A program made the translations under genes and the position numbers. The notes below the pieces were generated by a model. The model did not search any database. It was not told the DNA's origin and saw only the letters and a list, made by a program, of their open reading frames with translations. 64,000 bases of DNA from Mustelus asterias (Eukaryota), in contig NW_027590498.1 in NCBI RefSeq assembly GCF_964213995.1, positions 62,001 through 126,000 of the forward strand, read 5' to 3'. This document shows, piece after piece, positions 3,081 through 55,274 of the stretch. Position 1 is the first letter of the stretch. Every line of letters starts with the position of its first letter.

Positions 3081-3895
3081 CGGGGCTGGCCATCCGGCAC
3101 ACGGCCAAAGCCGTCCCAGACCTTAGGACGGTTGTGCTCGGCCCCGAAACTGCACGCAAACTCGAGGCGGCGCAGGCGTGCGGTGGGATCCCGCCCGAGC
3201 GTTGGCCAGCCTTGTTGCCGCCAGGTGGCGGAGGTCCCCGCTGGAGGTCCCTCTACGGAGGGATCTCCCCCAATTACGTCGGGGACCTGGGGTGGAGGGT
3301 GATGCATGCAGCAGTTCCGCACAACCGTAGGATTCACTGGTTCACGGGCTCCGAAGACTGCCCTTTCTGTGGCCTTGTGGACTCCGTGGACCATGTCTAT
3401 GTTGTGTGTCTTAGGCTGCACTCCCTTTATGTTTTCCTGAAGAACCTTTTATTGATGTTCTGTTTGCACTTCAGTCCCACGCTCCTGATCTACAGACACC
3501 TGGTGCGGGGAGGGGAGGGTCGGGTAGGCGACCTCCTCGTGAACCTGCTCCTGGGCCTGGCGAAACGCGCCATTTACCGGTCCAGGCAGCGGGCGATCGA
3601 GGGGGCCGTCCATCCTGACTGTCTTCCCCTCTACCGCGGCTACGTTCGCAGCCAGGTGTCCCTGGAGAGGGAGCATGCGGTGTCCACGGGCGAGGTTGAC
3701 ACCTTCCGCGCCCGTTGGGCACCGCAGGGGTTGGGGTGCGTTATTGACCCTAATAATCACATTTTAATTTGATGTTTAAGTTTCCTTTGTATTTTGATTT
3801 CTGTTCGGGCTGTTCCCCCTCCTTCTGGGGAGCTGCCCCTTTTACTTTGTCCTGATTTAACCCGAGTTTGTTTATTTGGTTTGACCTAAAAAGAG
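3081..3895 (+). mobile_element. Tx1/L1-clade LINE, 5'-truncated ORF2 C-terminus + 3'UTR
   Basis: DLGWRVMH, CPFCG..DHVY..C zinc knuckle, LLLGLAKRAIY, FRARW, stop at 3772, T-rich 3'UTR ending aaaaagag. Confidence 0.85.
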
Positions 3896-4713
3896 GCCAA
3901 CATCTGTGAGTAACACACTTTAGAGCTTGCTTGCTGGAGACGCCCGTTTTCTATCGTTTCTGCCGATTTGTTGGCTTCCTGCAAGAAGGAGGGAGGAAGG
4001 GGGAGGAAGGTGAGCTATCGCCTGCCTGCCATCTGCTGGAGGGTGCTCTCTCCCTGGAGGGAGAGGGGGAAAGAGGACACGGAGACACTTTCTTTCTTTA
4101 CTTTTTTCCACCGACGGGAGGGAAGACTGCACAGCCTCCTCATATCAACATCAGGGGACTGAGTGGGGCTGATGCCCTCATCAGAAGGTCAGTGCCTGAA
4201 AGGGAGGTTTGCGGGGGGGAGAAAATTTAGACTGTTTTCCATCTGCAGTGGGTGGGTGGGGAGGGGGTGAAGACACCCTGGACTTAGTTTGCGCCCAAGA
4301 GAGTTGGAAGAGTAAAGTCCCCCCACCCACTGCTGCTGCCCCCAACACCGACACCCACCCCCCCTCCCCCCTCCTTCCTCCTGACTGGGGCACCGGCCTT
4401 CCTCAGTGCCCTGTCCCTCCTCAGTGCCCTGTCCCTCGGGTGCGATCTACACCTGCGTCCTTGCAGATTGCCACTTTACTGAAACCCGGGAATGGCGGTG
4501 ATCCGCTTTGCTCCCAAAACAGGTGCAATGGCGATTTAAATTGAATTAATGAACTGCCCGCCCAACTTTCAGCATTTCCCCCTTTACCACCGCGTTTGCC
4601 AATCCGGAACCGCGCCGTAATGGACCTGCTCAATAAAAGTCTGAATCGGGGCTCCAGCTTCTGAAGAGTGCGTTCAGTGTTTCCAACGGCTCTCTGACTC
4701 AGATCAGTGGTGT

Positions 4714-4840
4714 GGGGGGGGGGGGGGGGGGGGGGCGGGGGAGAGGAGGGTCAGATCATTCTCTGGTTGGGGGGGGGGGGGGTGGAGGAGGAGGACGATC
4801 GGTCTGGGTAACGGGGTGGTGGGGGGGGGGGGGGGGGGAG
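4714..4840 (+). repeat. Poly-G tracts
   Basis: Three long G homopolymer runs. Confidence 0.85.
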
Positions 4841-4844
4841 GGTG

Positions 4845-5055
4845 TTTGATTCTTTACTCAGGAGAGTGGTTGGGGTGTGGAATGGACTACCTGCTGTGCT
4901 AGTGGAGTCGGACACTTTAGGAACTTTCAAGCGGTTATTGGATAGGCTCATGGAGCACACCAGGATGACAGAGTGAGATAGCTTGATTTTGGTTTTGGAC
5001 AAAGCTCAGCACAACATCGAGGGCCGAAGGGCCTGTACTGTACTATGTTCTATAT
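4845..5055 (+). mobile_element. CR1 3' end
   Basis: FTQ-RVVGVWNGLP coding remnant followed by gggccgaagggcctgtactg tail. Confidence 0.8.
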
Positions 5056-5056
5056 A

Positions 5057-5465
5057 ATCCAAGGTTGTCCTCCTCGCTATTTACCACACCACCAATGACA
5101 ATTTGTTCAATTATATCACACACCCGTCCCTGCTTTCTGTACCTACATTGTCCTTCCACACAGTGAACACAGATGCAAAATACTAATTTAGTACCTCAAA
5201 TACATCTTCGATTTTTTCTTTAGTTCTAACCTTCTGTGGCAACGCACTGCCTCAATCAGACATTGGGACTCAGAGTTGATGCAGTTTGATGGACAAGTTG
5301 TCTTCATTCTGAACAATGGGGAACAAGCTCCTCCCATTCACTGACAATTTGCCCCTTACAAAGATGGTGATCGCCCATCCACACATCACCATCTTTATTG
5401 GGGGCAGTCATTAAGATCTCAGGGATCTTTGACCTGCTTGATGCAAATGAGGGAACTGGTGAATT
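5057..5465. repeat. Local segmental duplicate of about 59493-60030 (CR1 remnant + decayed promoter piece)
   Basis: Shared atccaaggttgtcctcctcgctatttaccacacc, agacattgggactcagag..gatgcagtttgatggacaagttgtct and gatctcagggatctttgacc blocks. Confidence 0.8.
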
Positions 5466-5717
5466 TTCTTTCTGCACTGTGAAGAAGCTGTGATGTGAGT
5501 TCCTGACTGATGGGGAATGATCACAGACAGCAGTTCTTAAAGGGAAATGGCAACCCTGAAAACACAATCAGCTCTAGATCCAGAATATTAAACTCCAGCC
5601 CAGTTACAGGGGTTGTTAACATCAGCAGAAACAAACCTCAGATGTCAGAATGAATGTGGCTCACTCCTGGATGTGATTAACAGCAGCAGCTACAGCAGAA
5701 TCCACTCCCTGCACTCA

Positions 5718-6540
<823 letters not shown>

Positions 6541-8000
6541 GTCCCAGAGGATTGGAAAATCGCTGTTGTAACCCCACTGTTCAAGAAGGGAACAAGAAAA
6601 AAGATGGAAAATTATAGGCCAATTAGCCTAACCTCAGTTGTTGGCAAAATTCTAGAATCCATCGTTAAGGATGAGATTTCTAAATTCTTGGAAGTGCAGG
6701 GTCGGATTAAGACAAGTCAGCATGGATTTAGTAAGGGGAGGTCGTGCCTGACAAACCTGTTAGAGTTCTTTGAAGAGATAACAAATAGGTTAGACCAAGG
6801 AGAGCCAATGGATGTTATCTATCTTGACTTCCAAAAGGCCTTTGACAAGGTGCCTCACGGGAGACTGCTGAGTAAAATAAGGGCCCATGGTATTCGAGGC
6901 AAGGTACTAACATGGATTGACGATTGGCTGTCAGACAGAAGGCAGAGAGTTGGGATAAAAGGTTCTTTCTCAGAATGGCAACCGGTGACAAGTGGTGTCC
7001 CGCAGGGTTCAGTGTTGGGGCCACAGCTGTTCTCTTTATATATTAACGATCTAGATGACGGGACTGGGAGCATTCTGGCCAAGTTTGCCGATGATACAAA
7101 GATAGGTGGAGGGGCAGGTAGTATTGAGGAGGTGGGGAGGCTGCAGAAAGATTTAGACAGTTTAGGAGAGTGGTCCAAGAAGTGGCTGATGAAATTCAAC
7201 GTGGGCAAGTGCGAGGTCGTACACTTTGGAAAAAAGAATAGAGGCATGGACTATTTTCTAAACGGTGACAAAATTCATAATGCTAAAGTGCAAAGGGACT
7301 TGGGAGTCCTAGTCCAGGATTCTCTAAAGGTAAACTTGCAGGTTGAGTCCGTAATTAAGAAAGCAAATGTAATGTTGTCATTTATCTCAAGAGGCTTGGA
7401 ATACAAAAGCAGGGATGTACTTCTGAGGCTTTATAAAGCACTGGTTAGGCCCCATTTGGAGTACTGTGAGCAATTTTGGGCCCCACACCTCAGGAAGGAC
7501 ATACTGGCACTGGAGCGGGTCCAGCGGAGATTCACACGGATGATCCCAGGAATGGTAGGCCTGACATACGATGAACGTCTGAGGATCGTGGGATTATATT
7601 CATTGGAGTTTAGGAGGTTGAGGGGAGATCTGATAGAAACTTACAAGATAATGAACGGCTTAGATAGGATGGACGTAGGGAAGTTGTTTCCATTAACAGG
7701 GGAGACTAGGACGCGGGGGCACAGCCTTAGAATAAAAGGGAGTCACTTTAGAACAGAGATGAGGAGAAATTTCTTCAGCCAGAGAGTGGTGGGTCTGTGG
7801 AATTCATTGCCACAGAGGGCTGTGGAGGCCGAGACGTTGAGCGTCTTCAAGACAGAAATTGATAAATTCTTGATTTCTCGAGGAATTAAGGGCTATGGGG
7901 AGAGAGCGGGTAAATGGAGTTGAAATCAACCATGATTGAATGGTGGAGTGGACTCGATGGGCCGAATGGCCTTACTTCCGCTCCTATGTCTTATGGTCTT
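6541..8000 (+). mobile_element. Young 5'-truncated CR1 LINE (family B), open RT frame to 7923
   Basis: Uninterrupted RT (NYRPISLTS, DFQKAFD, GVPQG, FADD, RPHLEYC); 3'UTR with atgtcttatggtctt tail. Confidence 0.95.
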
Positions 8001-8122
8001 ACTGTCAGTCCAGGATTGAAATTCTGATCAGACAAGTCTAATTTCAAAAAGGAACAACTTTTCTGTTCCTGTTGCCCAAAACAGTAAATCTATGTCCCAC
8101 TCACTCTCCCTCCTCCGAGTTG

Positions 8123-8436
8123 AGGGCAGCACGGTGGCAGTGGTTAGCACTGCTGCCTCACAGCACCACAGACCCAAGTTTGATTCCCAGCTTGGGTCAC
8201 TGTCTGTTTGCACAGTCTCCCCGTGTCTGCATGGGTTTTCTCCAAGTGCTCTGGTTTCCTCCCACTGTCCAAACAGGTGCAGGTTAGGTGGATTGGCTAT
8301 GCTAAATTACCCTTGGTGTCAGGGGGACTAGCTAGGGTAAATGCATGGGGTAATGGGGATAGGGCGTGGACGGGATTGTGGTCAGTGCAGACTCGATGGG
8401 CTGAATGGCCCCCTTCTGCACTGTCAGATTCTATGA
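8123..8436 (+). mobile_element. HE1-type tRNA-derived V-SINE
   Basis: gggcagcacggtggcagtggttagcactgctgcctcacag head, V-domain, CR1-like tail gactcgatgggctgaatggcc. Confidence 0.9.
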
Positions 8437-8629
8437 GATCTAAATGAAATGTTGCATATTTTTCATGCATCCCAACTACTAATTTTTCCAAATCACTCCA
8501 AGGCCTGTTCTTCCCCATCTCTGGAATCGCCTCTAGCATTGCTCCAATTCTGGCTTCCTGCACATTCCCTATTTTAATCACTCCACCATTAGTGACTAGA
8601 CCTTCAGTGCACAGGGATGACTTCTCAAA

Positions 8630-8947
8630 GAATTCCTACAGTGCAGAAGGAAAGCATTTGGCCCATCAAGTCTGCACCAACTCTGAATATTTTACCCCTG
8701 ATCTACACTTGTAACCCACATTTTTAACCCCACTAATCCACCTTACCTGTACATCTTTGTACACGAAGGGGCAAAATAGCATGGCCAATCCCCCCAAGCA
8801 TCACATCTTTGGACAGTGGGAGGCAACTGGAGCATCCAGAGGAAACCCACAGTCACAGGGATAACGTGCAAACTCCACACAGACAGTGACCCAGGGCTGG
8901 AATCGAACCTGGGACCCTGGAGCTGTGAGGCAGCAGTGTTAACCACC
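8630..8947 (-). mobile_element. HE1-type V-SINE
   Basis: Reverse complement of the same consensus. Confidence 0.85.
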
Positions 8948-9119
8948 CTGATATTAATGGTGTTTTATCAATAGAAGTTGTTGTTGGCTGTAACCCTAAA
9001 TTCCAGTTTTACACACAGTTTGTTATTAAATCAATCTGATTTTTTTTGTCCCCTGTGGGTTATTCATTTGGTTTCACCCCCAAGAAATACAGTGGCTGTG
9101 CATGCGTTGTTCCAAATTA

Positions 9120-9190
9120 CCCTCAATAAAGATGGCGGATGCGCATGCGCTTTGCAGTACGTGGATTCCTATAAAGATGGCGGATATTAA
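9120..9190 (+). promoter_or_regulatory. YY1 + NRF1 promoter module
   Basis: aagatggcgg occurs twice, flanking tgcgcatgcgc. Confidence 0.6.
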
Positions 9191-9339
9191 CAAGGTCCTG
9201 AAGCCTTCGGAAGGCCCAAGGAATTTGCTTTGCTAATTGAGGCCAACACCGGGTGTTTATAAAGCCTCACCACCCACCCACCAACTCCATTTATGTTTCC
9301 AGTTTTATTTCGGGCTCTGCATCCGCACTCAGTCTTTGT

Positions 9340-11147
9340 AAACACATTCCTCTTAGAGTGAAGGGCAAGGCTGGCAGAAGTCAGGAACCCTGGATGACTC
9401 GGGTTATTGAGGCCCTGGTCAAGAAGAAGAAAGAGGCACATGACATGCATAGGGAGCTGGGATCAAGTGAATCCCTTGGCGTATAGGGGATGTAGGAGTA
9501 GAGTTAAGCGATAAATCAGGAGGGCAAAAAGGGGACACAAGATTGTTTTGGCAGATAAGGCAAAGGAGAATCCAAAGAGCTTCTACAAATACATAAAGGG
9601 CAAAAGAGTAACAAGGGAGAGAGTAGGGCCTCTTCAGGATCAACAAGGTCACCTATGTGAGGATCCACAAGAGATGGGTGAGATCCTATATGAATATTTC
9701 TCATCAGTATTTACTGTTGAGAAAAGCATGGAACTTGGGGAAATAGTGATGTCTTGAGGAGTGTACATATTACAGAGAAGGAGGTGTTCGAAGTCTTAAA
9801 GTGCATCAAGGTAGATAAATCCCCAGGACCTGAAGAAGAGTATCCCAGAACATTGTGCAAGGCTAGGGAGGAAATTGCAGTTCCCCTTGCTGAGATATTT
9901 GAATCATCGATAGTCACGGGTGAGGTGCCTGAAGATTGGAGTGTGGCAAATGTTGTGCCTTTGTTTAAAAAGGGCTGCAGGGAAAAGCCTGGGAACTACA
10001 GGCCAGTGAGCCTCACATCTGTGGTGGGTAAATTGTTGGAAGGTATTTTGATCCACAGGCATTTAGAGACGCAAGGACTGATTAGGGACAGTTCCGCATA
10101 GCTTTGAGTGGAAAATCATGTCTCACAAACTTGACTGAGTTTTTTTGAAGGGGTAACCAAGAAGGTAGATGAGGGGAGTGCAGTTGATGTTATCGACAAA
10201 GACTTTAAGCAAGGCCTTTGACAAGGTACCACATGGTAGGTTGTTACACAAGGTTAAATCTCACGGGATCCAGGGTGAGGTGTCTAAATGGATACAAAAT
10301 TGGCTTCTTGACAGAATAAGAAGTCTCACAACACCAGGTTAAAGTCCAACAGGTTTATTTGGTAGCCAATACCATAAGCTTTCGGAGCACTGCTCCTTCG
10401 TGGAGCAGTGCTCCGAAAGCTTATGGTATTTGCTACCAAATAAACCTGTTGGACTTTAACCTGGTGTTGTGAGACTTCTTATTGTGTTCACCCCAGTCCA
10501 ACGCCAGCATCTCCACATCATGACTTCTTGACAGAAGCCAGAGGATGGGTTGTAGTGAATTGTTTTTCAAACGGGAGGACTGTGACCAGCGGTGTGCCTC
10601 AGGGATCAGTGCTGGGTCCACTGTTATTTGTCATTTATATTCATGATTTGGATGAGAATATGGGCGGCGTGGTTAGTAAGTTTGCAGATGACACTAAGAT
10701 TAGTGGCATAATGGACAGTGAAGAGAGTTATCTTGATCAATTGGACCAGTGGGCTGACGAATGGCAGATGGAGTTTAATTTGGATAAATGCGAGGTGATG
10801 CATCTTGGTAGATCGAACCAGGGCAGGACTTACTCAGTTCAGGAGAGTTATAGAACAAAGATCATGGGGTACAGGTTCATAGCTCCTCGAAAGTGGAGTC
10901 ACAGATGGACAGAGTGGTGAAGAAGGCATTTGGCATGCTTGGTTTCATCGGTCAGAACATTGAATGCAGAAGTTGGCACAATTTGTTGAAGTTGTACAAG
11001 ACATTGGTAAGACCACATTTGGAATACTGTGTACAGTTCTGGTCACCCTATTATAGGAAGGATAATATTAAACTAGAAAGTGTGCAGAGAAGTTTTACGA
11101 GGATGCTACCAGGACTTGGTGTGAATGACAAGGAGGCACTGGATAGA
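9340..11147 (+). mobile_element. Degraded CR1 LINE
   Basis: Fragmented ORFs 9548-11162 with KENPKSFY, KSPGP, NYRPVSLTS, GVPQG, FADD, RPHLEYC. Confidence 0.9.
10317..10523 (+). mobile_element. Penelope-like element end (family 1) as fold-back insertion with TSD
   Basis: Inverted arms about 10315-10396 / 10402-10483, then a 40-nt tail; TSD cttcttgacagaa at 10304-10316 and 10524-10536. Confidence 0.8.
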
Positions 11148-11844
11148 GGGAGGGGAGGGTAGGGAAGGCAGGCCCCAGCTCCCCCACTCTCAGGGCACTG
11201 AGCTGCGCCTGCCTCCCCACAGGCAGCACTAACTCCAGGCCCAAGTGGGCAGGAGGTGGTGAAGCGGATCCTTACCTGGGAGGCACTGACACATTTCCCC
11301 CAGGGCTGTGCAGGGCAGGATATCTCAGTGCAGGGGGCCCCACTCTCTCTGAGCCACAGCCCAAGGCACTGACCAGTCCTTCCACACCAACCTAACCTGC
11401 TGGCACCAGAGGACCTGCAATTTTCTCCCGAGCCTCCCACTCCATCAAGTCCTGGGGATTTATCTACCTTGATGTACTTTAAGACTTCCAGCACCTCCTT
11501 CTCTGCAGCACTATTTTAACCTCAATGAATATAAAATAACATTGTTAGCTATTGAGATAAATTAATTTTTAAAAAAAACACAAATTGCAAATTGATGATC
11601 TGCTATGTTAAATTCTCCTGTGGGACTAGAGATTTAGAAACTTTTACTTTATCTCCTCTCTCTCTCCCCTTGACTCTGGCTGGATTCAATCACAGTCACT
11701 GGTTCCTCTCGTTCTGTCTCTTCCTGATTCTGAATATTCATTGTTTTACAGAATGATACAGCACAGATGGGAACCATTCAGCTCAGCATGCCTGGAAGAT
11801 CTATCCAATAAATTCAATAGCCCTGTTGGCAAAGTCAGAACAAT

Positions 11845-12392
11845 AAGGCCACACTTGGAATACTGTGTGCAGTTCTGGTCACCCTATTATAGAAAGGGTA
11901 TTATTAAACTAGAAAGAGTGCAGAAGAGATTGACTGGGATGCTACCGGACTTGATGGTTTGCGTTATAAGGAGAGGCTGGGACTTTTTTCCTCTGGAGTG
12001 CAGGAGGCTGAGGGGTGACCTTATAGAGGTCTATAAAATAATGAGGGGCACAGATCAGCGAGATAGTCAATATCTTTTCCCAAAGGTAGGGGAGTCTAAA
12101 ACTAGAGGGCAGAGGTTTAAGGTGAGAGGGGAGAGATACAGAAGTGTCCAGAGGGGCAGTTTGTTCACACAGAGGGTGGAGAGTGTCTGGAACAAGCTGC
12201 CAGAGGCAGTAGTCGAGGCGGGTACAATTTTGTCTTTTAAAAAGCATTGAGACAGTGACATGGGTACAATGGGTATAGAGGGATATGGGCCAAACACGGG
12301 CAAATGGGACTAGCTTAGGGGTTTTAAAAAGTGCAGCATGGACAAGTTGGGCCGAAGGGCCTGTTTCCAGGCTGTAAACCTCTGACTCTATA
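11845..12392 (+). mobile_element. CR1 3' end
   Basis: RPHLEYCVQFWSP...RLRGDLIEVYK coding remnant and gggccgaagggcctgtttcc tail. Confidence 0.9.
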
Positions 12393-12409
12393 AAAATCCC
12401 CATTTAAAA

Positions 12410-13205
12410 CCCGCTCGCTCGAGCTCCTTACCGTCTGCCGCAGGCACTGCGCATGCTCCAGCTCCCAAACCAGGGTGGGGCCGTTAACCTGGGCCTGTTC
12501 CCGGGAGGGAGGGAGGGAGAAGCCCCGCAGCTGCAAACCAGGGAGCTGACAATGATTCTGAAGGGTTTGCGGATCCTCCCCAATCTCCAACCGCCGGCTC
12601 CGCTGCTGCGATGTTGACTCCGCCCCAACCAGGTTTTATCTGAGTGTTGGTCCTCCAGCCCCGCCCCTCATTCACTCTGATTGGTTGGAGGACCAGCCGC
12701 TCCCGAACGGTCCTCCAGCCCCGCCCCCTCTTCCTATTGGTCCGGAGCTGCCGTCAATCATTCCCCGGGCATTGTGATGTGGAGCATGCGCACTGTCATT
12801 GCTGTCCTTGGCGCTTGTTTGTCCCGGAGAAGCGGAGTCAGCGTTAGGCGGTGGCTGGGAGGATTTGGAAACACTTTGTGGATCCGCAAACCCTTCAGAA
12901 TCATTGTCAGCTCCCTGGTTTGCAGCTGCGGGGCTTCTCCCTCCCGGAACAGGCCCAGGTTAACGGCCCCATCCTGGCTCAGCCACTGGAGGATGGTTCA
13001 CATCAGAGGATGGGGGAGGGGGACAATAAATAAGAGGTTACACTTTGGCCTCAATTCAATGAGGACTCTGATCTCTGGGAAGGAAGGAAACCCTGGGAGG
13101 TGGGCGGGGAGGATTCACAAACACCCGCTGGAGGCCCCAACACCCCCAATAAGACCCATTGGTTTTATTGTCAGTCTGCAGACAGGAGCTGGAGAACTGA
13201 ACCCA
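12410..13205. promoter_or_regulatory. CpG-rich ZNF promoter/first-exon cassette, copy 1
   Basis: NRF1-like tgcgcatgc and gcatgcgca, GC boxes ccgccc, reverse CCAAT attgg; near-identical to 54700-55273 and 60180-60725; lies upstream of the ZNF at 13767. Confidence 0.7.
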
Positions 13206-13766
13206 GACAGAGGAGAGGGAGGGAGAAAACTGGGAGTGGAGGAAAGACATGGTGAGATGGGTTTGGATTTCAGCCCAGGGAGGAGGGAAGAGTGTGTGGG
13301 ACGGGGATTTACAGATTTGGGGGAACAAGAGAGGAAAAATTGTTCCAGAGAAACTAGAATTGTGTGTTTCGATTTTTTTTCCAATACTGACAGTGGTTTT
13401 GTAAACTTCTTTTGCAGAATATTTGAAGTGGAAGTTTTACAGACAGGAAACTCAAATCAAAATTCTTACTAATATTTCACAGTTGGTCAATTTATCAGCA
13501 CACGAACACTGTCAACCTTAGAATGTGGATGGAGAAATGTTTCTCTGTTCTGTCTGTGGGAAAAGATTTCAAACATCAGTGTGACTGGAAAAGCACCGAG
13601 ACACATGCACACACCGGAGTGAGAGCGTTCCATTGAACTGACTGTGGAAAGAGATTTAACCAGTTACACAGCTTGAAAAAATATCACACCACTCAAAGTG
13701 AGGTGAAACTGCAGATGAATCTTGAACTGATTGTCCAACCCGGAGAGATACAAGGATACTGGCACC

Positions 13767-14345
13767 ATGGAGAAAATATGGAAATGTGGGGACTGTGGGA
13801 AGGGATTCCGTTGCCCGTCTGACCTGGAAACTCATCAACGGGTTCACACTGGGGAGAGACCATTCACCTGTTCCACGTGTGGGCAGGGATTTAGCAAGTC
13901 ATCCACACTGCAGTCACACCTGCGTGTTCACACTGGAGAGAGGCCATTCATCTGCTCTGTGTGTGGGAAAGGATTCACTCAGTCAACCAACTTGCTGACA
14001 CACCATCGAGTTCACACCAGGGAGAGACCATTTACTTGCTCTGAGTGTGGGAAGGGATTCACTCAGTCATCCAACCTGCTAATACACCAGCGAGTTCACA
14101 CTGGAGAGAAGTCATTCACCTGCTTTGAGTGTGGGAAGAGATTCACACAGTCATCCAACCAGCGAATTCACACTGGAGAGAGACCGTTCACCTGCTCTGC
14201 ATGCGGGAAGGGATTCAGCAGATTATCTATCCTGCAGGAGCACCAGCGCGTTCACACCAGGGAGAGGCCATTCACCTGCTCTGTTTGTGGGCAGAGATTT
14301 ACTTGTTCCTCCCTCCTGCTGAGACACAGGCGAGTTCCCAAGTGA
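13767..14345 (+). CDS. C2H2 zinc-finger protein (about 7 fingers, no KRAB)
   Basis: accATGg start, [18 protein letters not shown] linkers, one finger with an internal deletion; acceptor ttttgcag near 13417. Confidence 0.8.
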
Positions 14346-14635
14346 TTGCATGAGTTGGATTCTGTTGTTATTGCTGCTGCTAACCGTATCCAGGACTGAA
14401 ACATGTTTATTCATACAGGATGTTGATGGGAGGTGTGTCTGTCCCATTGTTTGGAGTGAATTGAAATTATGAGTTGAACCATCGAATCCCTACGGTGCAG
14501 AAGGAGGCCTTTCGGCCCATCAAATCTGCACTGACTCTTTGGTAAAGGAATCTGTTATTGTTCGTGTTGTTTCCAAGTTACCCATTAGTCATGTAGATTT
14601 TATCCTGGGAAATGACATAGTTCACAGTATAGTGT

Positions 14636-15080
14636 TTAGAAACATAGAAAATAGAAACAGGAGTAGGCCATTCGGCCCTTCAAGCCTGCTCCACTATTCA
14701 TTTTGATCATAGCTGATCATCAATTTCAATATCCTGATCCCGCCTTCCCCCCCATATCCCTTGCTCCCTTTAGCCCCAAGAGCTATATCTAATTTCTTCT
14801 TGAAATCACGCAATGTTTTGGCCTCAACCACTTTCTATGGTAATGAATTCCACAGATTCACCACCCTCTGGGTGAAGATGTTTCTCTTCACCTTAGTCCA
14901 GTTCTGGACTCCCCCACCATCGGGAACATTCTTTCTGAGTCTACCCTGTCTAATCCTGTTAGAATTTTATACGTTTCTATGAGATCCGCTCTCACTTTTC
15001 TAAACCCCAATGAATATCATCCTAACCGACTTAATCTCTCCTCATATGACAGACCTGCCATCCCAGGAATCAGCCTGATA
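14636..15080 (-). mobile_element. CR1 3' end (older family)
   Basis: agaaacatagaaaatag tail and RVVNLWNSLP coding remnant on the minus strand. Confidence 0.8.
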
Positions 15081-15496
15081 AACCACAACCAGGAACAGTG
15101 TACCATTGTTCAGAAGTTATCCATGAGTAAAAACTCCTCAACCATTTGTATTCCAGTTAAAGAATTGATTCAAATAAAAATGCTGATGTATCCACCCCAG
15201 TAATAGACAAAGGACTTAAGGCCTCATAGTGACTTTGAAGGGTTGTTAACACTAAACATTGAATTAAATGTGCTTGTCAGTGCTGAGATAATATAGGATA
15301 TAACAGCAGGAGTTCAATCAAATCAACTGTTCACAGTTGATCATTTAAAACCTCAAAATGAAGTGGTTTGTAAATTGTGCAGAAGATTCAATGTATTCAT
15401 AAAATAAAGATCCAAAATGAGGAAGTTGTTGATATCCCTCTAAAAGAGTTAATAAAATTCATTCTGAATGGCATGAGGAAAAACTGAAGGATTACA

Positions 15497-15790
15497 GAAT
15501 GTTGGAATTGTGGGAAGGGATTCAAAGCCCCATCTCAACTGGAAATTCACCGACACATCCACACTGGGAAAAGACCTTTTACCTGCTTTGAGTGTGGGAA
15601 GAGATTCACTCAGTCATCACACCTGCAGACACACAAGCGAGTTCATAGTGGGGTGAGGCCATTCACCTGCGCTGAGTGTGAGGAGGGGTTCAAGGATTCA
15701 TCTACCCTGTGGACACACCAGTGAGTTCACACCAGGGAGAGACCATTCACCTGCGCTGAATGTGAGAAAGGATTCATTCAGTTATCCAAG
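15497..15790 (+). pseudogene. C2H2 ZNF fragment (about 3.5 fingers, internal TGA)
   Basis: [29 protein letters not shown]...; CAG TGA GTT CAC stop near 15722. Confidence 0.8.
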
Positions 15791-16244
15791 ATTTCCACGG
15801 TTTCTCCATGGTGTTGCTGTCCTTGTGAATCTACAAGATTGATGATCAACTGAAGCCTCGTCCACACACACACAACACGTGTCCGGTTTCTCCTCACTGC
15901 GAATGGTGTGATGTTTTTTCAGGCTGTGTAACTGGTTAAAGCTCTTTCCGCAGTCAGGTCACTGGAACACTCTCAATCGGATATGTGTGTCTCGGTGCTT
16001 TTCCAGTCACACTGCTGTTTAGAACCTTCTGAAGCAGACAGAACACCATTTCTTCATACACACTTTCTTCATACACACTCATATAATGATTCAATCAACC
16101 TCCTCCATCTGTACATACTTCAGTTCAATTCTAGATTGAAAGACCGATGATATTCAGGTCCCTTTGAATAGAGTAAATGTGTCAGGTCTTGACGTGACAT
16201 TAGGTTTTGAGATTTTTGTCTGCAAATCTTCTCCTTCTCAAAAC
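15790..16244 (-). pseudogene. Truncated ZNF exon (degenerate leader + MEKPWK only)
   Basis: Acceptor ttttacag at 16245, family leader, accATGgagaaaccgtggaaa, then abrupt end. Confidence 0.75.
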
Positions 16245-16666
16245 CTGTAAAAGGAATTTACAAAAGTCATCCCTGTCAATACAGGAGTGAAATTCAGAAT
16301 TCACAATTCCACTTTCAGTTAAATATTGTTTCCTCTGCACAACATCGTGGGCCGAAGGGCCTGTTCTGTGCTGTACTGTACTGTTCTTTGTTCTCTCTTG
16401 TTTACCAAAAGCTGCAAATCTCAATCACATACATTCCCCCGACTCTCACTCTGCCGTACCTGATATATACCCTCCCAATTCTCCTGAAGATGCTGATTCA
16501 TGCTGACTGACAGACCCATGCTCACTGCTTCCTGATCTGGAGACCTGAAAACCTTGTTGCAGACTGCCAGACTAAATACAAACACAGAGGTACAGATTCT
16601 GGAGGAAAACATATGTTTAATAAACACTGCTGCATTACTTGATCAGAGATTGTCAGAGAGGACTTG

Positions 16667-17075
16667 ATCAGAGAGGTCGGGAATGTAGTCCAATCCATCA
16701 CGCAACCCAGTCTCCCATCCATTAACTCTGTCTACACTTCCCGCCACCTCAGCAAAGCAGTCAGCATAATTAAGGACCTCACTCATCCCGGACATTCTCT
16801 CTTCCACCTTCTTCCATCAGGAACAAGATACAAAAGTCTGAGGTCACGTACCAAATGATTCAAGAACAGCTTCTTCCCTGCTGTCATCAGACTTTTGAAT
16901 GGACCAACCTTGCATTAAGTTGATCTTTCTCTAAACCCTAGCTATGACTGTAACACTACACTCTGCACTCTCTCCTTTCCTTCTCTATGAACGGTATGCT
17001 TTGTATAGCGCGCAAGAAGCAATACTTCTCACTGTATACTCAGACATGTGACAATAATAAATCAAATCAAATCAA
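16667..17075 (+). mobile_element. Rex1/Babar-like LINE 3' end
   Basis: SIIKDLTHPGHSLFHLLPSGTRYKSLRSRT..FKNSFFP..IRLLN and (aatca)n tail. Confidence 0.8.
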
Positions 17076-17812
17076 AAAAGATTCATGACCATGTCAGTAA
17101 GAACTTCATTGAGGTGCTGAGTGTTCACAAACACAAACTCGCTGCTTATGAGAATGGTGGAATTAAAGATGATCCAAGATTTCAAACTGAACTGGCTGGA
17201 CAATTGGAGGAAATAATCTTGTGAGATACAGGGTACAGAGGGAGAATGGGACTGACTGGATTGCTCTACAGAGAGTCAGCACAGACTCGAATGGACATAT
17301 TCTGTGCTGTAATGGATCAATGACTGGAAAGGTATGTCACCACAGTGCTATATTACAAACTTGAAATAACAATAAATGAAATTTATCACAGAACCATAAA
17401 TAATATATCTAATATGCATCCAATAGCAAAACTAGACATAACTCGGTCCTATATAAAATTACTGTCCCACAAAGAATCATGAATTTACACCAAATTACAC
17501 CAAAAATACCCATACCTGCCATACCTTACTATATTGTCCACTTAAATGTCAACCATCTCCTGGGGAAACCAGCCTTTAATTGTGAACATTGGGAAACAGG
17601 TCACCGTTTTAGCCAGACAAATAAATGTGTCAACCTGAGGGAGTTAAAGAATGTCAATATCTTTAAGAGAGAGAGAGAGACCTGGGGCAACCTTGCCAGA
17701 GTCTGCAGCCTCCCTGGATTCCCTTCAGTTGCTGCAAGTCCCCAATTTCCCCCAGAATGAGAAAGGAATGGAAAGAGGGAGAAAAGAAAGTGTTTTACTC
17801 ACAGATGTTGGC

Positions 17813-18076
17813 CTCTTTTAAGGTCAAACCGAATAAACAAACTCAAGTTAAATCAGGACAAAGTAAAAGGGGCAGCTCCCCAAAAGGAGGGGGAACAGCC
17901 CGAACAAAAATCAAACTACAAAAGAAACTTAAAAACATCAAATCATAATGTGATTATTAGGGTTGATAACGCATCCCAACCCCTGCGGTGCCCAACGGGC
18001 GCGGAAGGCGTCAACTGCGCCCGTGGACAGCACATGCTCCCTCTCCAGGGACACCTGGCCGCGAACATAGCTGCGA
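17813..18076 (-). mobile_element. Tx1-clade LINE 3' end, second copy
   Basis: Reverse complement aligns to about 3635-3895 (VSLEREHV..FRARWAPQG and 3'UTR). Confidence 0.85.
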
Positions 18077-18340
18077 TTGTGGCGACAGATGGAAGTTTCA
18101 GTCTGTCTGAAACTCAATCTTCATTGTCACAAAGCGCGCGCTCTGGTTGGCTGGATGACCAGCGGTCTGTCGGTCCTCCAAGCCCTTCCATTGGTCAACA
18201 CCTCAGCAGGGTTCAGAAACATTTCTGCATGTGCGCAGATTGATCCCTTGGACATGCGCAGATTTGAGCCGCCCGGTCGATAGAGCGACTTCCCCAACGC
18301 GGGGCATTGTGGGCGATGCAGCCGCCATTACTGTACCAGA
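18077..18340 (-). promoter_or_regulatory. CpG-rich promoter/first exon of the minus-strand ZNF unit
   Basis: tgcgcatg motifs, ccaat, and a ggtcatccagccaacc block similar to 43730-43745; the exon continues past Tx1 to a GTGAGTAA donor at 17802. Confidence 0.55.
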
Positions 18341-18564
18341 CCACAGTCTCCAAACTCCTGAGATTGGGATAAAAGGTGGCGGTGGCAGTGACTGCACCCT
18401 GACACAAGGCACAAGTGGGTAGTCACGAGCTTATATATTGACGCCCACTTAGCAAAACAGTTCACCTTCAGGCAGATAGATTGACATTTTTGGGTAACAA
18501 ACTAGGGAGGGCAAGAGGTAGGCTGAAATTTAAACTGAGAATTAGCACATAAGGTGGAGAAGAA

Positions 18565-38166: not shown

Positions 38167-38845
38167 GGTGTTGGTATCCGTGTGTCTCTCCAGGTTGGAT
38201 GATCAGTTGAAGCCTCATCCATACACAGAATATCTGTACAGTTTCTTCTCGCTGTGAATGGTGTGATGTTTTTCAGGCTGTGTAACTGGTTAAAGCTCTT
38301 TCCACAGTCAGTTCACTGGAACACTCGCACTCTGGTGTGTGTGTGTCTCAGTGATTTTCCAGTCATACTGATGTTTGAAATCTTTTCCCACAGACAGAAC
38401 AGACCAACATTTCTCCTTCCACATTCAAAGGTCGATAATATTCGGCTCCTGATGAATTGAGTGAATTTTTCAGATATTGAAATGTGTTTCTCGACTGTAA
38501 CTCCCTGTGGGAAAGGTGTTGAAAAAAGCTGTCAATGCAGGGACAAGATAACATTCAGAACAAACATTTCTTTTGGTTTGAGTTTGCTGTGTGTAAATCT
38601 TCCCCTTCTAACCCTCTGTAAGAGGAATTCCCAAAATCCATCACTGTCAGTCCAGGATACAAACTCTGAATTTGGTTATCTGAAGGGGATGAATGATCCG
38701 GGTTACAGGGAGGAGGCAGGGGAATAGCTCTCCATGAATTGCTCGTTCCGAGAGCCAGCACAGACGCAATGGGCCAAATGGCCTCTTTCTGTGCTGTAAC
38801 AATTCTGGGAAATTCACAACATTCCCTCCTCCGAGCCCAGGATGA

Positions 38846-40457: not shown

Positions 40458-40489
40458 TTACAGGGAAGGTGGAAGCTCTTCATACCGGA

Positions 40490-41275
40490 TGACACCAATC
40501 TCTTTATACCCGAAACAAACCAAGACCACAGTCACTGACACCAATCTCCTTCTGTCTGATATAAACCCCACACTGACACCAATCTCCTCCTGTCTGATAT
40601 AAACCCCACACTGACACCAATCTCCTCCTGTCTGATATAAACCCCACACTGACACCAATCTCCTCCTGTCTGATATAAACCCCACAGTCACTGACACCAA
40701 TCTCCTCCTGTCTGATATAAACCCCACACTGACACCAATCTCCTCCTGTCTGATATAAACCCCACACTGACACCAATCTCCTCCTGTCTGATATAAACCC
40801 CACACTGACACCAATCTCCTCCTGTCTGATATAAACCCCACACTGACACCAATCTCCTCCTGTCTGATATAAACCCCACACTGACACCAATCTCCTCCTG
40901 TCTGATATAAACCCCACACTGACACCAATCTCCTCCTGTCTGATATAAACCCCACACTGACACCAATCTCCTCCTGTCTGATATAAACCCGTGTGGTTTT
41001 TGCTACCAAATAAACCTGTTGGACTTTAACCTGGTGTTGTTAAACTTCTTACTGTGATATAAACCCCACAGTCACTTTAACCTGGTGTTGTTAAACTTCT
41101 TACTGTGTTTACCCCAGTCCAACGCCGGCATCTCCACATCATGATATAAACCCCACAGTCACTGACACCAACCTCCTCCTGTCTGATACAAAACCCCACA
41201 CTGACACCAATCTCCTCCTGTCTGATATAAACCCCAGCCACTGACACCAACCTCCTCCTATCTGATTATAATGTA
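40490..41275 (+). repeat. 38-bp minisatellite (about 15 units)
   Basis: Unit ctgacaccaatctcctcctgtctgatataaaccccaca, with an occasional +gtca variant; interrupted at 40991-41142. Confidence 0.95.
40991..41142 (+). mobile_element. PLE family 1 end (partial tandem) within the minisatellite
   Basis: gtgtggtttttgctaccaaataaacctgttgg... then target-derived spacer, then a second copy with the ccagtccaacgccggcatctccacatcat tail. Confidence 0.8.
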
Positions 41276-43262: not shown

Positions 43263-43599
43263 CCTGACAAATTTAACAAAAAAATCCAATTTTAACAAAA
43301 ATAACAAACTGAACATAATTTCATTCATACCTTGTGACAAAACAGGAATCTGAATCTTGTGCCAGAATGGAATGTGTGGAGATTTTCTCAGAGAAGCCTC
43401 AGTCACCCTCACTGAGACTAACTTTAAATTGTAAATTGTATTAATTGAATGGATTTGAAGCCCTGTCCCCAGAACATTGTGCTGTCTCTCTGGATTACTA
43501 ATGCAGTGACATTGTCACTCGGTCAGTGTGTCCCCTTCTCTCTTTGTTGGAGATGGTTTGAGGGGAGAAGCCGGAAGCAGTGGACAGGGAGAGTGGAGA

Positions 43600-44165
43600 A
43601 TGTTCATTGTAAACCCCGCCCCCCCGGCACTGACCTCTCACCCGACACCTCACAATGCCCGGGGACTGATTGACGGCAGCTCCGGGCCAATAGAAGGAGA
43701 GGAGGCTGGACGGTCGCGAGGGAGCTGCTGGTCCTCCGACCAATCGGAGTGAATGAGGGGCGGGGCTGAGTGAAGCATGCGCAGTGTGATTAATGGCGGT
43801 GGAGACATTCTTTCTCGGATCCACAATCAGTAAAGGTGGGAATGGCGGGGCGGAGGACGCGATAGACCAGGCGGGGGTTTGGAGAGGCGTCCTAAACATG
43901 TTACGTAAGCTGCGAACTCTTAAAAAGAACCCAGCGATATCAGAGGATGGTCCCGGCCCTCAGCGCAGAGCCTCAGCATTCTCCCAGTTACAGACCCGGG
44001 TTAATCAGGGCCATCGTCATCGGGGCACGAGCAACACGGCGCGTGCGCAGTCGCCGTCTTCAGTCGGCGCACAAGCAACACGGCGCATGCGCAGTAGCCG
44101 TCTTCAGTCGGCGCACGAGCAACACGGCGCATGCGCAGTCGCCATCTTTGTTTGGGGCAATGTTT
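43600..44165. promoter_or_regulatory. CpG island, probable bidirectional promoter between divergent ZNFs (41798- and 45941+)
   Basis: Reverse copy of the cassette core (ccaat twice, ggggcgggg, gcatgcgca) plus NRF1/YY1 repeats. Confidence 0.65.
44010..44150 (+). repeat. 44-bp tandem repeat x3 carrying NRF1 and YY1-like sites
   Basis: gcacgagcaacacggcgcatgcgcagtcgccgtcttcagtcggc starts at 44025, 44069 and 44113. Confidence 0.85.
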
Positions 44166-50021: not shown

Positions 50022-51563
50022 TCACACATGAAGTCGTCTATGTTTCAGCAGGCTGTAATACTGATTAAATCCCTTCCCACACATGGAGCAGTTGAAAGGT
50101 TTTGCCCCAGTGTGAACTCGCTGGTGTCTCTGCAGGCGGGATGGATCAGTGAATCCCTTCCCACACAGGGAGCAGGCGAACGGTTCTGTCCCAGTGTGAA
50201 CTCGCTGGTGTCTCTGCAGGCTGGATACCTGAGTGTATCCCTTCCCACACACAGAGCAGGTGAACAGTCTCTCCCCGGTGTGAACTCGCTGGTGTCTCTG
50301 CAGGCAGGATGAATCAATGAATCCCTTCCCACACACAGAGCAGGTGAACGGCCTGTCCCCTGTGTGAATGTATTGGTGTCTCAGCAGGTCAGACGACTGA
50401 GTGAATCTCTTGCCACAAATGGAGCAGGAGAACGGCTTCTCCCCTGTGTGAGTGCGGCGGTGTGTCCGGAGGCTGGATGACTCGGTGAAAGCCTTCCCAC
50501 ACTCGGAGCAGATGAACACCCTCTCCCCGGTGTGAACAGGCCGATGTCTCAGCAGGTGTTGTGAAGAAGCAAATGCTTTCCCGCACACAGGGCAAACGTA
50601 AGGCCTCTCCCCTGTGTGAACACGCTCGTGCATCACAAGCTGGGATGAACAAGGAAACATCTTCCCACACACGGAGCAGAGGAATGGCCTCTCCCCAGTG
50701 TGAACTCGCCGGTGCCTCAGAAGATAGTAAGACCGAGTGAATTCCTTCCCACACACCGAGCAGGTGAACAGCTTCTCCCCAGTGTGAACTTGTTGGTGTG
50801 TCAGCTGGTCAGTTGATTGAACTTCTTCCTTTCTACACATTGAGGAGGTGAATGGTTTCCCTCCAGTGTGAATACTCTTGTGTGTCAAAAGGCGTGAAAA
50901 TCGAGTGAATCTCTTCCCACACAGGGAGCAGAGGAAAGGCCTCTCCCCAGTGTGAACTCGCTCGTGTGTCAGAAGATGAGATGAATGAGCAAATCTCTTC
51001 CCACAAACAGAACAGGGGTACGGCTTCTCCCCGGTGTGAGTGCCCTGGTGTCTCAGCAGACTAATCCTTCTTTTGAAGGTCTTCTCACATTTAAAGCATT
51101 TAAAATGTCTCTTCTGAGAATGAACCAGTTGGTGAACGGTGCAGTGGGAGGACTGAGTGAATCTCTTCCCACACTGGGAGCAGCTGAATGGCCTGTCCTT
51201 GGTGTGAACTTGTTGGTGCTCAGTGAGATGCACTGAGTCACTGAATGACTCTCCACAATGAGTGCAGCTGAACGGTCTCTCGTGTGTGTGAAGGAGCTGG
51301 TGCTCTGCAAGGCGGGAGGACTGGCTGAACCTCTTCCCGCAGTGGGAGCAGCTGAACGGTCTCTCGTCAATGTGAAGGAGCTGGTGTTGGGCCTGTTCCT
51401 CAGACGTCTCAACGCTGTCCCCAGAGTCAGAGCTTTGAAGAGGCTTCTCATCAATGTGATCGAGTTGGTGAGCCAGCAGGTTGGACGAACACATGAATTT
51501 CTTCCCACACACGGAGCAGGTGAATGAACTCTCACTGTTGCGAGCTCGCTGTCGTGTCAGCAT
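50022..51563 (-). CDS. Large C2H2 zinc-finger protein (about 16 intact + 2 degenerate fingers)
   Basis: Long open frame with repeated HTGERPF linkers; first ATG at 51563, true start uncertain. Confidence 0.85.
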   Translation of the reverse strand: MLTRQRARNSESSFTCSVCGKKFMCSSNLLAHQLDHIDEKPLQSSDSGDSVETSEEQAQHQLLHIDERPFSCSHCGKRFSQSSRLAEHQLLHTHERPFSCTHCGESFSDSVHLTEHQQVHTKDRPFSCSQCGKRFTQSSHCTVHQLVHSQKRHFKCFKCEKTFKRRISLLRHQGTHTGEKPYPCSVCGKRFAHSSHLLTHERVHTGERPFLCSLCGKRFTRFSRLLTHKSIHTGGKPFTSSMCRKEEVQSTDQLTHQQVHTGEKLFTCSVCGKEFTRSYYLLRHRRVHTGERPFLCSVCGKMFPCSSQLVMHERVHTGERPYVCPVCGKAFASSQHLLRHRPVHTGERVFICSECGKAFTESSSLRTHRRTHTGEKPFSCSICGKRFTQSSDLLRHQYIHTGDRPFTCSVCGKGFIDSSCLQRHQRVHTGERLFTCSVCGKGYTQVSSLQRHQRVHTGTEPFACSLCGKGFTDPSRLQRHQRVHTGAKPFNCSMCGKGFNQYYSLLKHRRLHV

Positions 51564-51774
51564 GTTTACCAGCTGATCAATCCCTTCCCACACGAGGAGC
51601 AGATGAACGGATTCTCACCAGTTTCCAACTGAGATGGTCAATTAAATCCCTTCAGATGCACAAATTTTCAGATCCCGATGAACCGATTGACTCTGTCAGA
51701 CGTGAGATTCGATCATCCAGACTGCAGATCCTTCTCTTCAATTTCCTGCAAAATAAGTTTACAAAGAATTACAT

Positions 51775-54339: not shown

Positions 54340-55273
54340 AAACATGAAGCCCCGCCCAGTCGATGTTGCGTCACCGAGAGCATGCGCTCTCCTCCCTGCT
54401 GAATCAAGATGGCGGCCGTTAACCTGAGTCTCGTCTCGGGAAAAAGACCGGAAGCTGCAAACACAGACCGACGGGCTCATTTTCGAGATTTGAGGCCTTG
54501 ACCAGGTATTTAGAAACCCTCTACGTCCATCCGCCGGTTCCATTACTCCCTCTATGTTTCCGCATCCTTACCGGCTGCTGATGAGACAGAGGAACTTCTC
54601 TCCGATTGCGATCACCCACACTGCGTGCTGCAAACGCCGTTGCTTACTGCGCATGCTCCAGACTGTAACATTACTGCGCATGCGAACCCCTTCCCGTGCG
54701 TTCCATGGGGACACCTCAGCCCCGGCCCTCATTCAGTCCGATTGGATGGAGGACCAGCCGCTCCCGCTCGGTCCTCCAGCCCCGCCCCCTATTCCTATTG
54801 GTCCGGAGCTGCCGTCAATCAGTGCCCGGGCATTGTGATGTGGAGCATGCGCAGTGTCATTGCTGTCCTTGGCGCTTGTTTGTCCCGGAGAAGCGGAGTC
54901 AGCGTTAGGCGGTGGCTGGGAGGATTTGGAAACACTTTGTGGATCCGCAAACCCTTCAGAATCATTGTCAGCTCCCTGGTTTGCAGCTGCGGGGCTTCTC
55001 CCTCCCTCCCTCCCGGGAACAGGCCCAGGTTAACGGCCCCATCCTGGCTCAGCCACTGGAGGATGGTTCACATCAGAGGATGGGGGAGGGGGACAATAAA
55101 TAAGAGGTTACACTTTGGCCTCAAATCAATGAGGACTCTGATCTCTGGGAAGGAAGGAAACCCTGGGAGGTGGGCGGGGAGGATTCACAAACACCCGCTG
55201 GAGGCCCCAGTACCCCCAATAAGACCCATTGGTTTTATTGTCAGTCTGCAGACAGGAGCTGGAGAACTGAACC
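54340..55273. promoter_or_regulatory. CpG island with ZNF promoter cassette, copy 2
   Basis: aagatggcggcc (YY1) and several tgcgcatgc (NRF1) motifs; 54760-55273 nearly identical to 12700-13204. Confidence 0.7.
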
Positions 55274-55274
55274 C

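What the first reader, a model, noticed from the sequence alone, without database searches (positions are those of the whole stretch)
3081..18090. Candidate site-specific Tx1 retrotransposon that targets the first exon of ZNF genes
Seen: two Tx1-clade copies (3081-3895 +, 17813-18076 -) have very different 5' extents, yet both end aaaagag followed by the same sequence GCCAACATCT GTGAGTAA(c/a)ACACTTT (3896-3921; 17812-17787). The flanks diverge after that. In copy 2 the upstream flank is a CpG promoter and ...catctgtcGCCACA, a short imperfect duplication of GCCAACA. GTGAGT is a canonical splice donor pointing toward the ZNF exon at 16244, and that gene is now truncated. Known: Tx1-clade families (Tx1L, Keno, Dewa, Kibi, Koshi) insert sequence-specifically into multicopy targets such as U2 snRNA, tRNA arrays, microsatellites and other TEs. 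Inference: this family uses the multicopy ZNF leader exon as its target, 10 nt before the donor, either as a safe haven or as a way of disabling putative TE repressors. I know of no report of such a target.
Basis: partly seen in the sequence, partly recalled or inferred. Interest (0 to 1): 0.78.

Follow-up and report, generated by a model that had tools for sequence, protein, structure and literature searches.

The report
Jumping gene homing to zinc-finger leaders
A retrotransposon family in this vertebrate genome has inserted many separate times at the same two spots in the short first exon shared by over a thousand zinc-finger genes, though most of its copies land elsewhere; it likely finds these spots with RNA read through from its host gene, and would often be spliced out of the gene's message.

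Summary
Largely real, and richer than reported. The element is a Tx1-clade LINE (ORF2 49% identical to Xenopus Tx1L). The 26-nt flank is not its 3' end: it is the end of a multicopy ZNF leader exon plus donor, found 1,177 times, often empty. At least 27 distinct 5' junctions sit at this one nucleotide (site A); about 0.04 are expected from the short motif alone. A second spot (site B) lies 51 nt upstream. It is not strictly site-specific: 189 of 1,615 exact 3' ends (12%; 26%, 25% and 6% by subfamily) carry these flanks, and the rest are dispersed at a 2-4 nt motif. Full-length copies sit under ZNF promoters with a tRNA-Val-like head and often an internal GTGAGT donor. 14-15 bp duplications can copy the donor upstream. 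The dispersed motif switches CC, GC, TC along the family tree in step with the ZNF flank, while the endonuclease hairpin barely changes, so read-through RNA likely guides priming. Copy 2 is a true leader insertion. Copy 1 is a rearranged, duplicated end stacked on another Tx1's 5' UTR. Splicing and the 'disabling repressors' idea are not shown.

The parts
3081..3896 (+). Copy 1: 3' part of Tx1 ORF2 and 3' UTR, ending AAAAAGAGG; 190-nt internal deletion at 3203; rearranged left edge; segmentally duplicated
   Evidence: 90-96% to intact copy L107
3897..3921 (+). Target-like stretch CCAACATCT + GTGAGTAACACACTTT at the 5' end of a second Tx1 copy, on which copy 1 is stacked
3906..4422 (+). 5' UTR of a second Tx1 copy (no ORF1 follows); not ZNF intron
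   Evidence: 68-78% to the 5' UTRs of L104, L100, L093
3030..3079 (-). Fragment of a ZNF exon 2, inverted relative to copy 1, forming its left junction
   Evidence: 82-87% to 6325-6376, 15959-16004, 38311-38360
17812..18075 (-). Copy 2: 264-nt 5'-truncated Tx1 (CCTTAAAAGAGG tail subfamily) inserted at site A of a ZNF leader
   Evidence: same junction in L214 and L215
18078..18082 (-). Short imperfect 5' copy of the target duplication (CCACA); no donor copied here
17787..17811 (-). End of ZNF leader exon (CCAACATCT), predicted donor GTGAGT at 17802, start of intron 1
   Evidence: use of the donor is inferred
18083..18330 (-). ZNF promoter and 5' part of the leader (CCAAT-type boxes, CpG-rich); site B region not filled here
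15780..16244 (-). ZNF exon 2 behind the conserved acceptor; stops, frameshifts and truncation: a pseudogene

Best explanation
This is a Tx1-clade non-LTR retrotransposon that has inserted many independent times at two fixed positions in the leader exon of a ZNF gene family of over a thousand copies, while most of its copies are dispersed, and it likely finds these positions because its RNA runs on into the ZNF flank and pairs with the nicked target. Shown: identity of the element, empty and filled targets, at least 27 distinct junctions at site A, site B 51 nt upstream, full-length copies under ZNF promoters, no poly(A) tail, one 3' transduction of ZNF intron, and a subfamily-specific 2-4 nt motif at dispersed sites equal to the start of that subfamily's ZNF flank. 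Inferred: source copies are transcribed from the ZNF promoter and read through their 3' end; the endonuclease nicks loosely; the read-through bases anneal to the nicked strand and prime reverse transcription, so a few bases suffice anywhere but ZNF leaders give a long match and win about 500-fold or more. A second nick 14-15 nt on, or a donor inside the element's own 5' UTR, would leave a GTGAG(T) upstream, so that the element is spliced out with intron 1: a predicted safe haven that also supplies a promoter.
For: ORF2 of L107 is intact, 1,297 aa, endonuclease + RT, 49% to Tx1L, grouped with it at 100/100. 1,177 target motifs, clustered; of the first 30, 18 empty, 10 filled by Tx1, 2 by another element. 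Filled fractions 63 of 1,400, 56 of 215 and 70 of 283. Of 86 site-A loci read, 72 run into ZNF intron 1, 12 into a Tx1 5' UTR, 2 other. 23 distinct junctions directly behind a native leader plus L201 and L146, L147 and the L150 group; about 0.04 expected from the SCAA frequency if 2,000 leaders are assumed. Serial stacking at one site (L066, L104, L131, L210). No Tx1 end on any of 142 CCAAT-box contexts of the same promoters. All 40 best ORF1-start hits lie on contigs C71 and higher, none on the large chromosomes; 13 of 30 fetched are directly under a promoter and 11 in tandem. Motif clustering on the tree: 18 changes against 42.9 shuffled, 0 of 200. Hairpin FT(Y/F)VRPG(V/T)GASRLD in both subfamilies. 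L041/L061 carries about 160 nt of ZNF flank on C1. Annealing of RNA to target is proposed for SART1Bm and R1Bm (PMC7265360, passages).
Against: About 88% of exact 3' ends lack these flanks. Raw filled counts are inflated by segmental duplication and tandem arrays (11 duplicates of copy 1, 5 of the L069 junction). The endonucleases are only 81-88% identical between subfamilies in 2 versus 2 copies, so protein change is not excluded. Homology at dispersed sites stops after about 4 nt, and 7 of 30 C1 copies have an ACAA motif with no ZNF flank found to match it. About half of the truncated site-A insertions, copy 2 among them, have a short duplication or a deletion and no upstream donor; 7 of the 24 young 5' ends in which the head was in view lack the internal GTGAGT. 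The CCAAT control rests on loci mostly picked for site A. Transcription start, read-through and splicing were not observed. The tree had 62 of 99 inner branches open.
Confidence: 0.62

Rival explanations
1. The same hotspots, but set by the endonuclease (helped by open promoter chromatin), as is the usual view for Tx1 families; subfamilies changed target by protein changes.
For: Kojima 2015 (PMC4494074) states that target choice is mainly set by the endonuclease. A- and B-type endonucleases differ at 12-19% of residues. A second element with a different tail uses the same nucleotide, which a shared nicking preference would explain.
Against: The hairpin is nearly unchanged while the motif moves from CCAA to TC; dispersed motifs track each subfamily's ZNF flank; CCAAT boxes in the same promoters were not hit in the loci held.
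Confidence: 0.25
2. No real targeting: a few chance insertions were multiplied by ZNF cluster duplication, gene conversion and 3' transduction.
For: Many filled loci share junctions; 63 of 86 lack a leader right at the first 5' break found; L061 is a transduction; copy 1 is a duplicate.
Against: At least 27 different 5' junctions behind native leaders, with duplications of about 5-15 bp or small deletions, captured tRNAs at some 5' ends, and serial stacking; three subfamilies with different branch lengths take part.
Confidence: 0.05
3. Targeting evolved to knock out ZNF repressors of transposons (arms race).
For: Zebrafish ZNFs repress young transposons (PMC10547256, passages). Copy 2's gene is a pseudogene. 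12 of the first 30 motif loci are occupied.
Against: Insertion is in a non-coding leader and often leaves a donor; finger arrays behind filled sites are often unbroken (6 of 12); no data show these ZNFs bind this element.
Confidence: 0.08

Closest known systems
Tx1L of Xenopus laevis (P14381)
   Same: Closest named protein: 49% identity over the whole ORF2, same well-supported branch with turtle and sturgeon proteins; prefers a repeated target (Tx1D DNA transposon, per PMC4494074 and PMC6719617).
   Different: Target here is a Pol II protein-coding gene family's leader; most copies are dispersed. The Tx1L primary paper was not held, so duplication lengths were not compared from a source.
Crocodilian Tx1-Mar and SINEU (Kojima 2015, PMC4494074, main text read)
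   Same: Graded preference (13-90% of flanks for the SINEU families), two hotspots in one target used differently by different families, tandem copies around a duplication, small-RNA heads added by template switch, proposed transcription from the flank.
   Different: Target is a Mariner DNA transposon; heads are U1/U2, here tRNA-Val-like; no donor-copying duplication is described. One SINEU-2A 5' extension comes from the intron of a RING/B-box gene family, not a leader target.
Keno, Kibi, Koshi, Dewa (fish Tx1 families)
   Same: Same clade; multicopy targets (U2 snRNA, microsatellites per PMC4494074; Dewa's tRNA-array target is recalled).
   Different: Fish 'pol-like' proteins BAC82609 and BAC82603 are 35% and 31% identical and on another branch; that they belong to these families is recalled, not checked.
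Spliced-leader-specific elements (NeSL; CRE/SLACS recalled)
   Same: Insert into a multicopy leader exon that ends in a donor (PMC4640811, passages).
   Different: Restriction-like endonuclease, small-RNA genes, strict specificity; here an APE-type element and cis-spliced protein-coding genes.
R1Bm / SART1Bm
   Same: RNA 3' sequence proposed to anneal to the nicked target; R1Bm needs downstream target sequence (PMC7265360, passages).
   Different: R1 clade, rDNA or telomere targets, strong endonuclease specificity; no record seen of target switching along a subfamily series.

Membership tests
Tx1 clade of non-LTR retrotransposons | ORF2 with APE-type endonuclease and RT, preceded by an ORF1 with a zinc knuckle | tested here: met
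   PF03372 and PF00078 above cut-off; ORF1 zf-CCHC at E 0.003, below cut-off
Tx1 clade of non-LTR retrotransposons | RT groups with Tx1L | tested here: met
   100/100 branch with P14381 in a 27-row tree of the search's own hits, no L1 outgroup; 49% to Tx1L by BLASTP; phmmer E about 1e-79 to human L1 ORF2
Tx1 clade of non-LTR retrotransposons | Target-primed insertion marks: fixed 3' end, variable 5' truncation, target duplication or small deletion | tested here: met
Target-specific Tx1 family (Kojima's rule: over 20% of flanks of one kind) | More than 20% of flanks are the target | tested here: inconclusive
   Met for the TT-tail subfamily (56 of 215) and the TC subfamily (70 of 283); not met for the rest (63 of 1,117) or overall (189 of 1,615). 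Strict patterns undercount; duplicates overcount
Target-specific Tx1 family (Kojima's rule: over 20% of flanks of one kind) | Independent insertions shown by different 5' truncations | tested here: met
   at least 27 junctions
Target-specific Tx1 family (Kojima's rule: over 20% of flanks of one kind) | Endonuclease cuts the target in vitro | not testable with these tools
   needs a nicking assay
Strictly site-specific elements (R2, NeSL, Keno type) | Nearly all copies at one site | tested here: not met
   59 of 60 copies sampled on large chromosomes have unrelated flanks
Keno / Kibi / Koshi / Dewa / Tx1-Mar | Target is U2, a microsatellite, a tRNA array or Mariner | tested here: not met
   flanks; Repbase itself could not be searched
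Intron-hidden insertion | Element removed from the ZNF mRNA by splicing from a copied or internal donor | tested here: inconclusive
   donor sequences present in part of the copies; no RNA run on record for this stretch

The most novel reading that the evidence does not exclude
A LINE family lives as a tenant of a vast ZNF gene family: it borrows the ZNF promoter, is guided back to paralogous leaders by its own read-through RNA, has re-programmed its target at least twice simply by moving house (CCAA to GCAA to TC) without changing its nuclease loop, and rebuilds a splice donor in front of itself so that the host gene, a likely transposon repressor, keeps working. A second, non-coding element shares the same site.
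Probability: 0.3. Interest if true: 0.88.

Novelty: new variant of a known kind. Interest (0 to 1): 0.72.

Why it matters
Known targets of sequence-specific LINEs are rRNA, snRNA, tRNA and spliced-leader genes, transposons, microsatellites and telomeres (list in PMC4640811). The first exon of a protein-coding, Pol II gene family would be a new kind, and it is the family thought to police transposons. The graded series of subfamilies with different short motifs makes an old question testable in one genome: how target specificity arises and switches, by nuclease or by RNA flank. If the RNA flank sets the site, it also bears on programmable RNA-templated insertion. Nine paper searches listed no report of such a target; Repbase, most subscription journals and the supplement of Kojima 2015 were not seen, so an entry there cannot be excluded.

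Tried and rejected
Pfam on the window ORF of copy 1 gave nothing useful. ARAGORN and a 44-kb Rfam scan missed the tRNA head; narrower scans found it. No RNA holder was listed for 15600-18400. Contigs of three possible RNA runs of other organisms and one other run, laid on L095, showed no donor-to-acceptor joint among the 15 joints listed, with 386 not shown: no evidence either way. The idea that the 26 nt are the element's own 3' end was rejected. The idea that site B is only a template-jump junction was rejected, as L028, L029 and L030 are in native leaders and L030 has a 14-bp duplication. The downstream classes came from too lax a pattern and were redone. One search had a coordinate slip, redone. 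Gene integrity of filled against empty genes was too small a sample. The second element gave no protein match. A direct genome count of the 10-mer was not run; the estimate rests on 3 hits and was not used. 7 of 63 and 26 of 56 filled site-A loci and most of the 70 site-B loci were not read. Two primary papers were not held. Three look-ups of earlier findings returned nothing.
Full report
The observation. The window is G000:C466:62001-126000 in a 3.68-Gb genome. From its CR1 elements, ZNF arrays and size I take it to be a cartilaginous fish; that is an inference and was not pursued.

What the element is. An intact natural copy (L107) has a 1,297-aa ORF2 with endonuclease and RT domains and an ORF1 with a weak zinc-knuckle match. 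The closest named protein is Xenopus Tx1L ORF2, 49% identical over the full length. In a 27-row RT tree drawn from the search's hits it groups with Tx1L, turtle and sturgeon proteins at 100/100, apart from the fish 'pol-like' proteins. There is no poly(A) tail. The element ends in AAAAAGAGG or TAAAAGAGG: 60 of 60 dispersed copies continue with G, and where a duplication is visible its 5' copy need not have that G.

What the flank is. A degenerate 24-nt motif for the flank occurs 1,177 times, in clusters and often head to head. Of the first 30 such loci, 18 are empty, 10 are filled by this Tx1 and 2 by another element. Empty loci show a promoter with CCAAT boxes, a short leader ending CCAACATCT (a second type ends GCAACATCT), a GTGAGT, an intron of 0.4-1.7 kb, a conserved acceptor and a C2H2 array. 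So the sequence is a multicopy ZNF first exon and not part of the element's 3' end. That the GT is the donor in use is inferred from this layout.

How specific. Exact 3' ends number 1,400 for the TA tail and 215 for the TT tail. Followed by G[GC]CAACATCTG are 63 and 56. Among TA ends, 283 continue with TC, and 70 of these match a second position, site B, 51 nt upstream in the same leader. That makes 26%, 25% and 6% (63 of 1,117), 189 of 1,615 in all. These strict patterns undercount (copy 2 itself fails them by one letter) and duplicates overcount. On the large chromosomes 59 of 60 sampled copies have unrelated flanks; the one exception, L041, carries about 160 nt of ZNF flank in a non-ZNF place and looks like a 3' transduction. 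By Kojima's rule of over 20% (PMC4494074) two subfamilies are target-specific and the family as a whole is not.

Independence. I read 86 of the 119 site-A loci (56 of 63, 30 of 56). 72 continue into ZNF intron 1, 12 into a Tx1 5' UTR and 2 into other sequence; none is clearly an unrelated chance match. Many are duplicates: 11 of copy 1, 5 of the L069 junction, 3 of copy 2. In 63 of 86 no leader lay at the first 5' break, because of later insertions, deletions, too short a view or transduction. After collapsing by hand, 23 different junctions stand directly behind a native leader (all loci held were scanned; rows reaching another gene's leader and the second element's own row were dropped), plus L201 and three full-length 5' ends: at least 27 events. 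SCAA occurs about 6.7e7 times by the rate in 60 dispersed loci; 1,332 insertions spread over these would put about 0.04 in 2,000 leaders (my generous figure), and about 2 if a 7-nt match were always needed. Repeated stacking at one site is seen in L066, L104, L131 and L210. No Tx1 end lay on a CCAAT box in 142 distinct promoter contexts held, though these loci were mostly chosen for site A.

Anatomy of full-length copies. All 40 best hits for the start of ORF1 lie on contigs C71 and higher, where most target motifs lie, and none on the large chromosomes. Older copies read: promoter, leader, a copy of the target, a tRNA-like head with anticodon GAC (Rfam 60.6, 51.2 and 40.9 bits), then an internal GTGAGTAACACACTTT that mirrors the donor and intron start, then the 5' UTR. 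The youngest copies begin with a captured piece of leader. Of 30 fetched, 13 stand under a promoter, 11 in tandem, 2 are cut by the edge and 4 are out of view; 17 of the 24 with the head in view keep an internal GTGAGT. Other copies captured a tRNA-Cys with trailer, another tRNA or U2 at their 5' break, so the head likely came by template switching, as Kojima describes for snRNA heads.

Duplications. Where clean, they are 13-15 bp. At site A a 14-15 bp duplication copies the exon end and GTGAG(T) upstream of the element (L117, L127, L131, L146, L201, L210), which would place the element in intron 1. About half of the truncated insertions instead have a short duplication or a small deletion and no upstream donor; these would add 10-400 nt to the leader. 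Copy 2 is of this kind, and its gene is a pseudogene.

Mechanism. Dispersed TT-tail copies go on with CC in 30 of 30 cases (CCA in 28), C1 TA-tail copies with GCA in 15, ACA in 7, CCA in 5 and other letters in 3, and the young subfamily with TC. The 5' copies of the duplications show these letters are in the target. They equal the first letters of the three ZNF flanks, except ACA, for which no flank was found. On a tree of 102 3' ends the motif clusters (18 changes against 42.9 shuffled, 0 of 200), dispersed and ZNF-resident copies mix within each group, and end branches shorten from CC to GC to TC (weak support, near-copies inflate clustering). The hairpin before the SRLD motif, which I recall as the specificity loop of these endonucleases, differs by at most two residues between subfamilies, with 81-88% identity overall in 2 versus 2 copies. 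I therefore favour priming by read-through RNA on a loosely chosen nick, with the ZNF promoter driving the source copies. This step is inferred; endonuclease change remains a fair rival.

The two window copies. Copy 2 is a true site-A insertion shared with L214 and L215. Copy 1 is followed by another Tx1's 5' UTR, abuts an inverted ZNF exon piece, and lies 11 kb behind a full-length-type 5' end in a ZNF promoter just left of the window; the same spacing recurs on C71 and C88. It may be that element's 3' end after deletion and CR1 insertions; this is not proven.

Comparison and novelty. It works like Tx1-Mar (graded preference, two hotspots, heads, tandems) and like R1Bm/SART1 (RNA-target pairing), and resembles spliced-leader-specific elements in its choice of a leader exon. 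It is a Tx1-clade member by the tests run, and not a member of the named target families. Papers seen: PMC4494074, parts 1-4 of 5 (whole main text, no supplement); PMC4640811, PMC6719617, PMC10547256 and PMC7265360, passages only; Kojima and Fujiwara 2004, Christensen 2000 and Anzai 2005 not seen. Nine searches listed no ZNF-leader target. Verdict: a new variant of a known kind. Preferential, repeated insertion is about 90% secure; the RNA-guided mechanism about 60%; splicing-out is untested.

Noticed in passing
L129:259-1499, L101, L131, L135, L216, L268, L093: A second element, 1.2-1.9 kb, with no protein match and a different tail (AAAAGAAA), sits at the same nucleotide: 90 of 230 tail matches are followed by the target start, many in 1.87-kb tandem arrays. 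All 4 5' ends seen begin at one fixed point right after a GTGAGT; L129 has a perfect 15-bp duplication.
   Followed up: partly
L262:2985-3056, L099, L101, L219:1743-1816: A tRNA-Cys with its trailer, and another tRNA, joined to the 5' break of truncated copies at site A.
   Followed up: partly
L049:1862-1994 and 2349-2545; L098:8074-8174: U2 snRNA pieces fused 5' of two Tx1 fragments on C1, and a U2 5' fragment about 57 nt behind a filled site; possible start of a SINEU-like chimera.
   Followed up: no
L104, L152, L154, L163, L212, L213, L221: An unidentified stretch of about 150 nt ending in a short Tx1 tail, inserted at site A and followed by further stacked copies; no Rfam match.
   Followed up: partly
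protein P0020: A turtle gene model (CAM2110706.1) fuses KRAB and C2H2 domains with a Tx1 RT of the same branch; a hint that relatives also sit in ZNF genes, or a chance annotation.
   Followed up: no
G000:C71, e.g. 6383363/6383917 and 11540790/11541401: ZNF leaders often lie head to head 0.5-1.1 kb apart, as if sharing a bidirectional promoter.
   Followed up: no
window 12681-13472, 43498-43959, 54514-55278, 59947-60753: A repeated GC-rich block recurs near other ZNF exons; no canonical site-A leader was found for these genes, so they may use another promoter type.
   Followed up: no
window 50022-51614 (-): An open 530-aa C2H2 array, the longest in the window; several shorter or broken arrays lie around it.
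   Followed up: no
window 40458-41039: Tandem repeat with open frames on the minus strand.
   Followed up: no
G000:C8:15-40 Mb and C14:6.17-6.20 Mb: Local clusters of the young TC-type ends outside the ZNF contigs; flanks not read.
   Followed up: no
L217, L222, L223, L018: Short tandem runs in which a 3' end is followed by the element's own internal sequence starting TC or GC.
   Followed up: no
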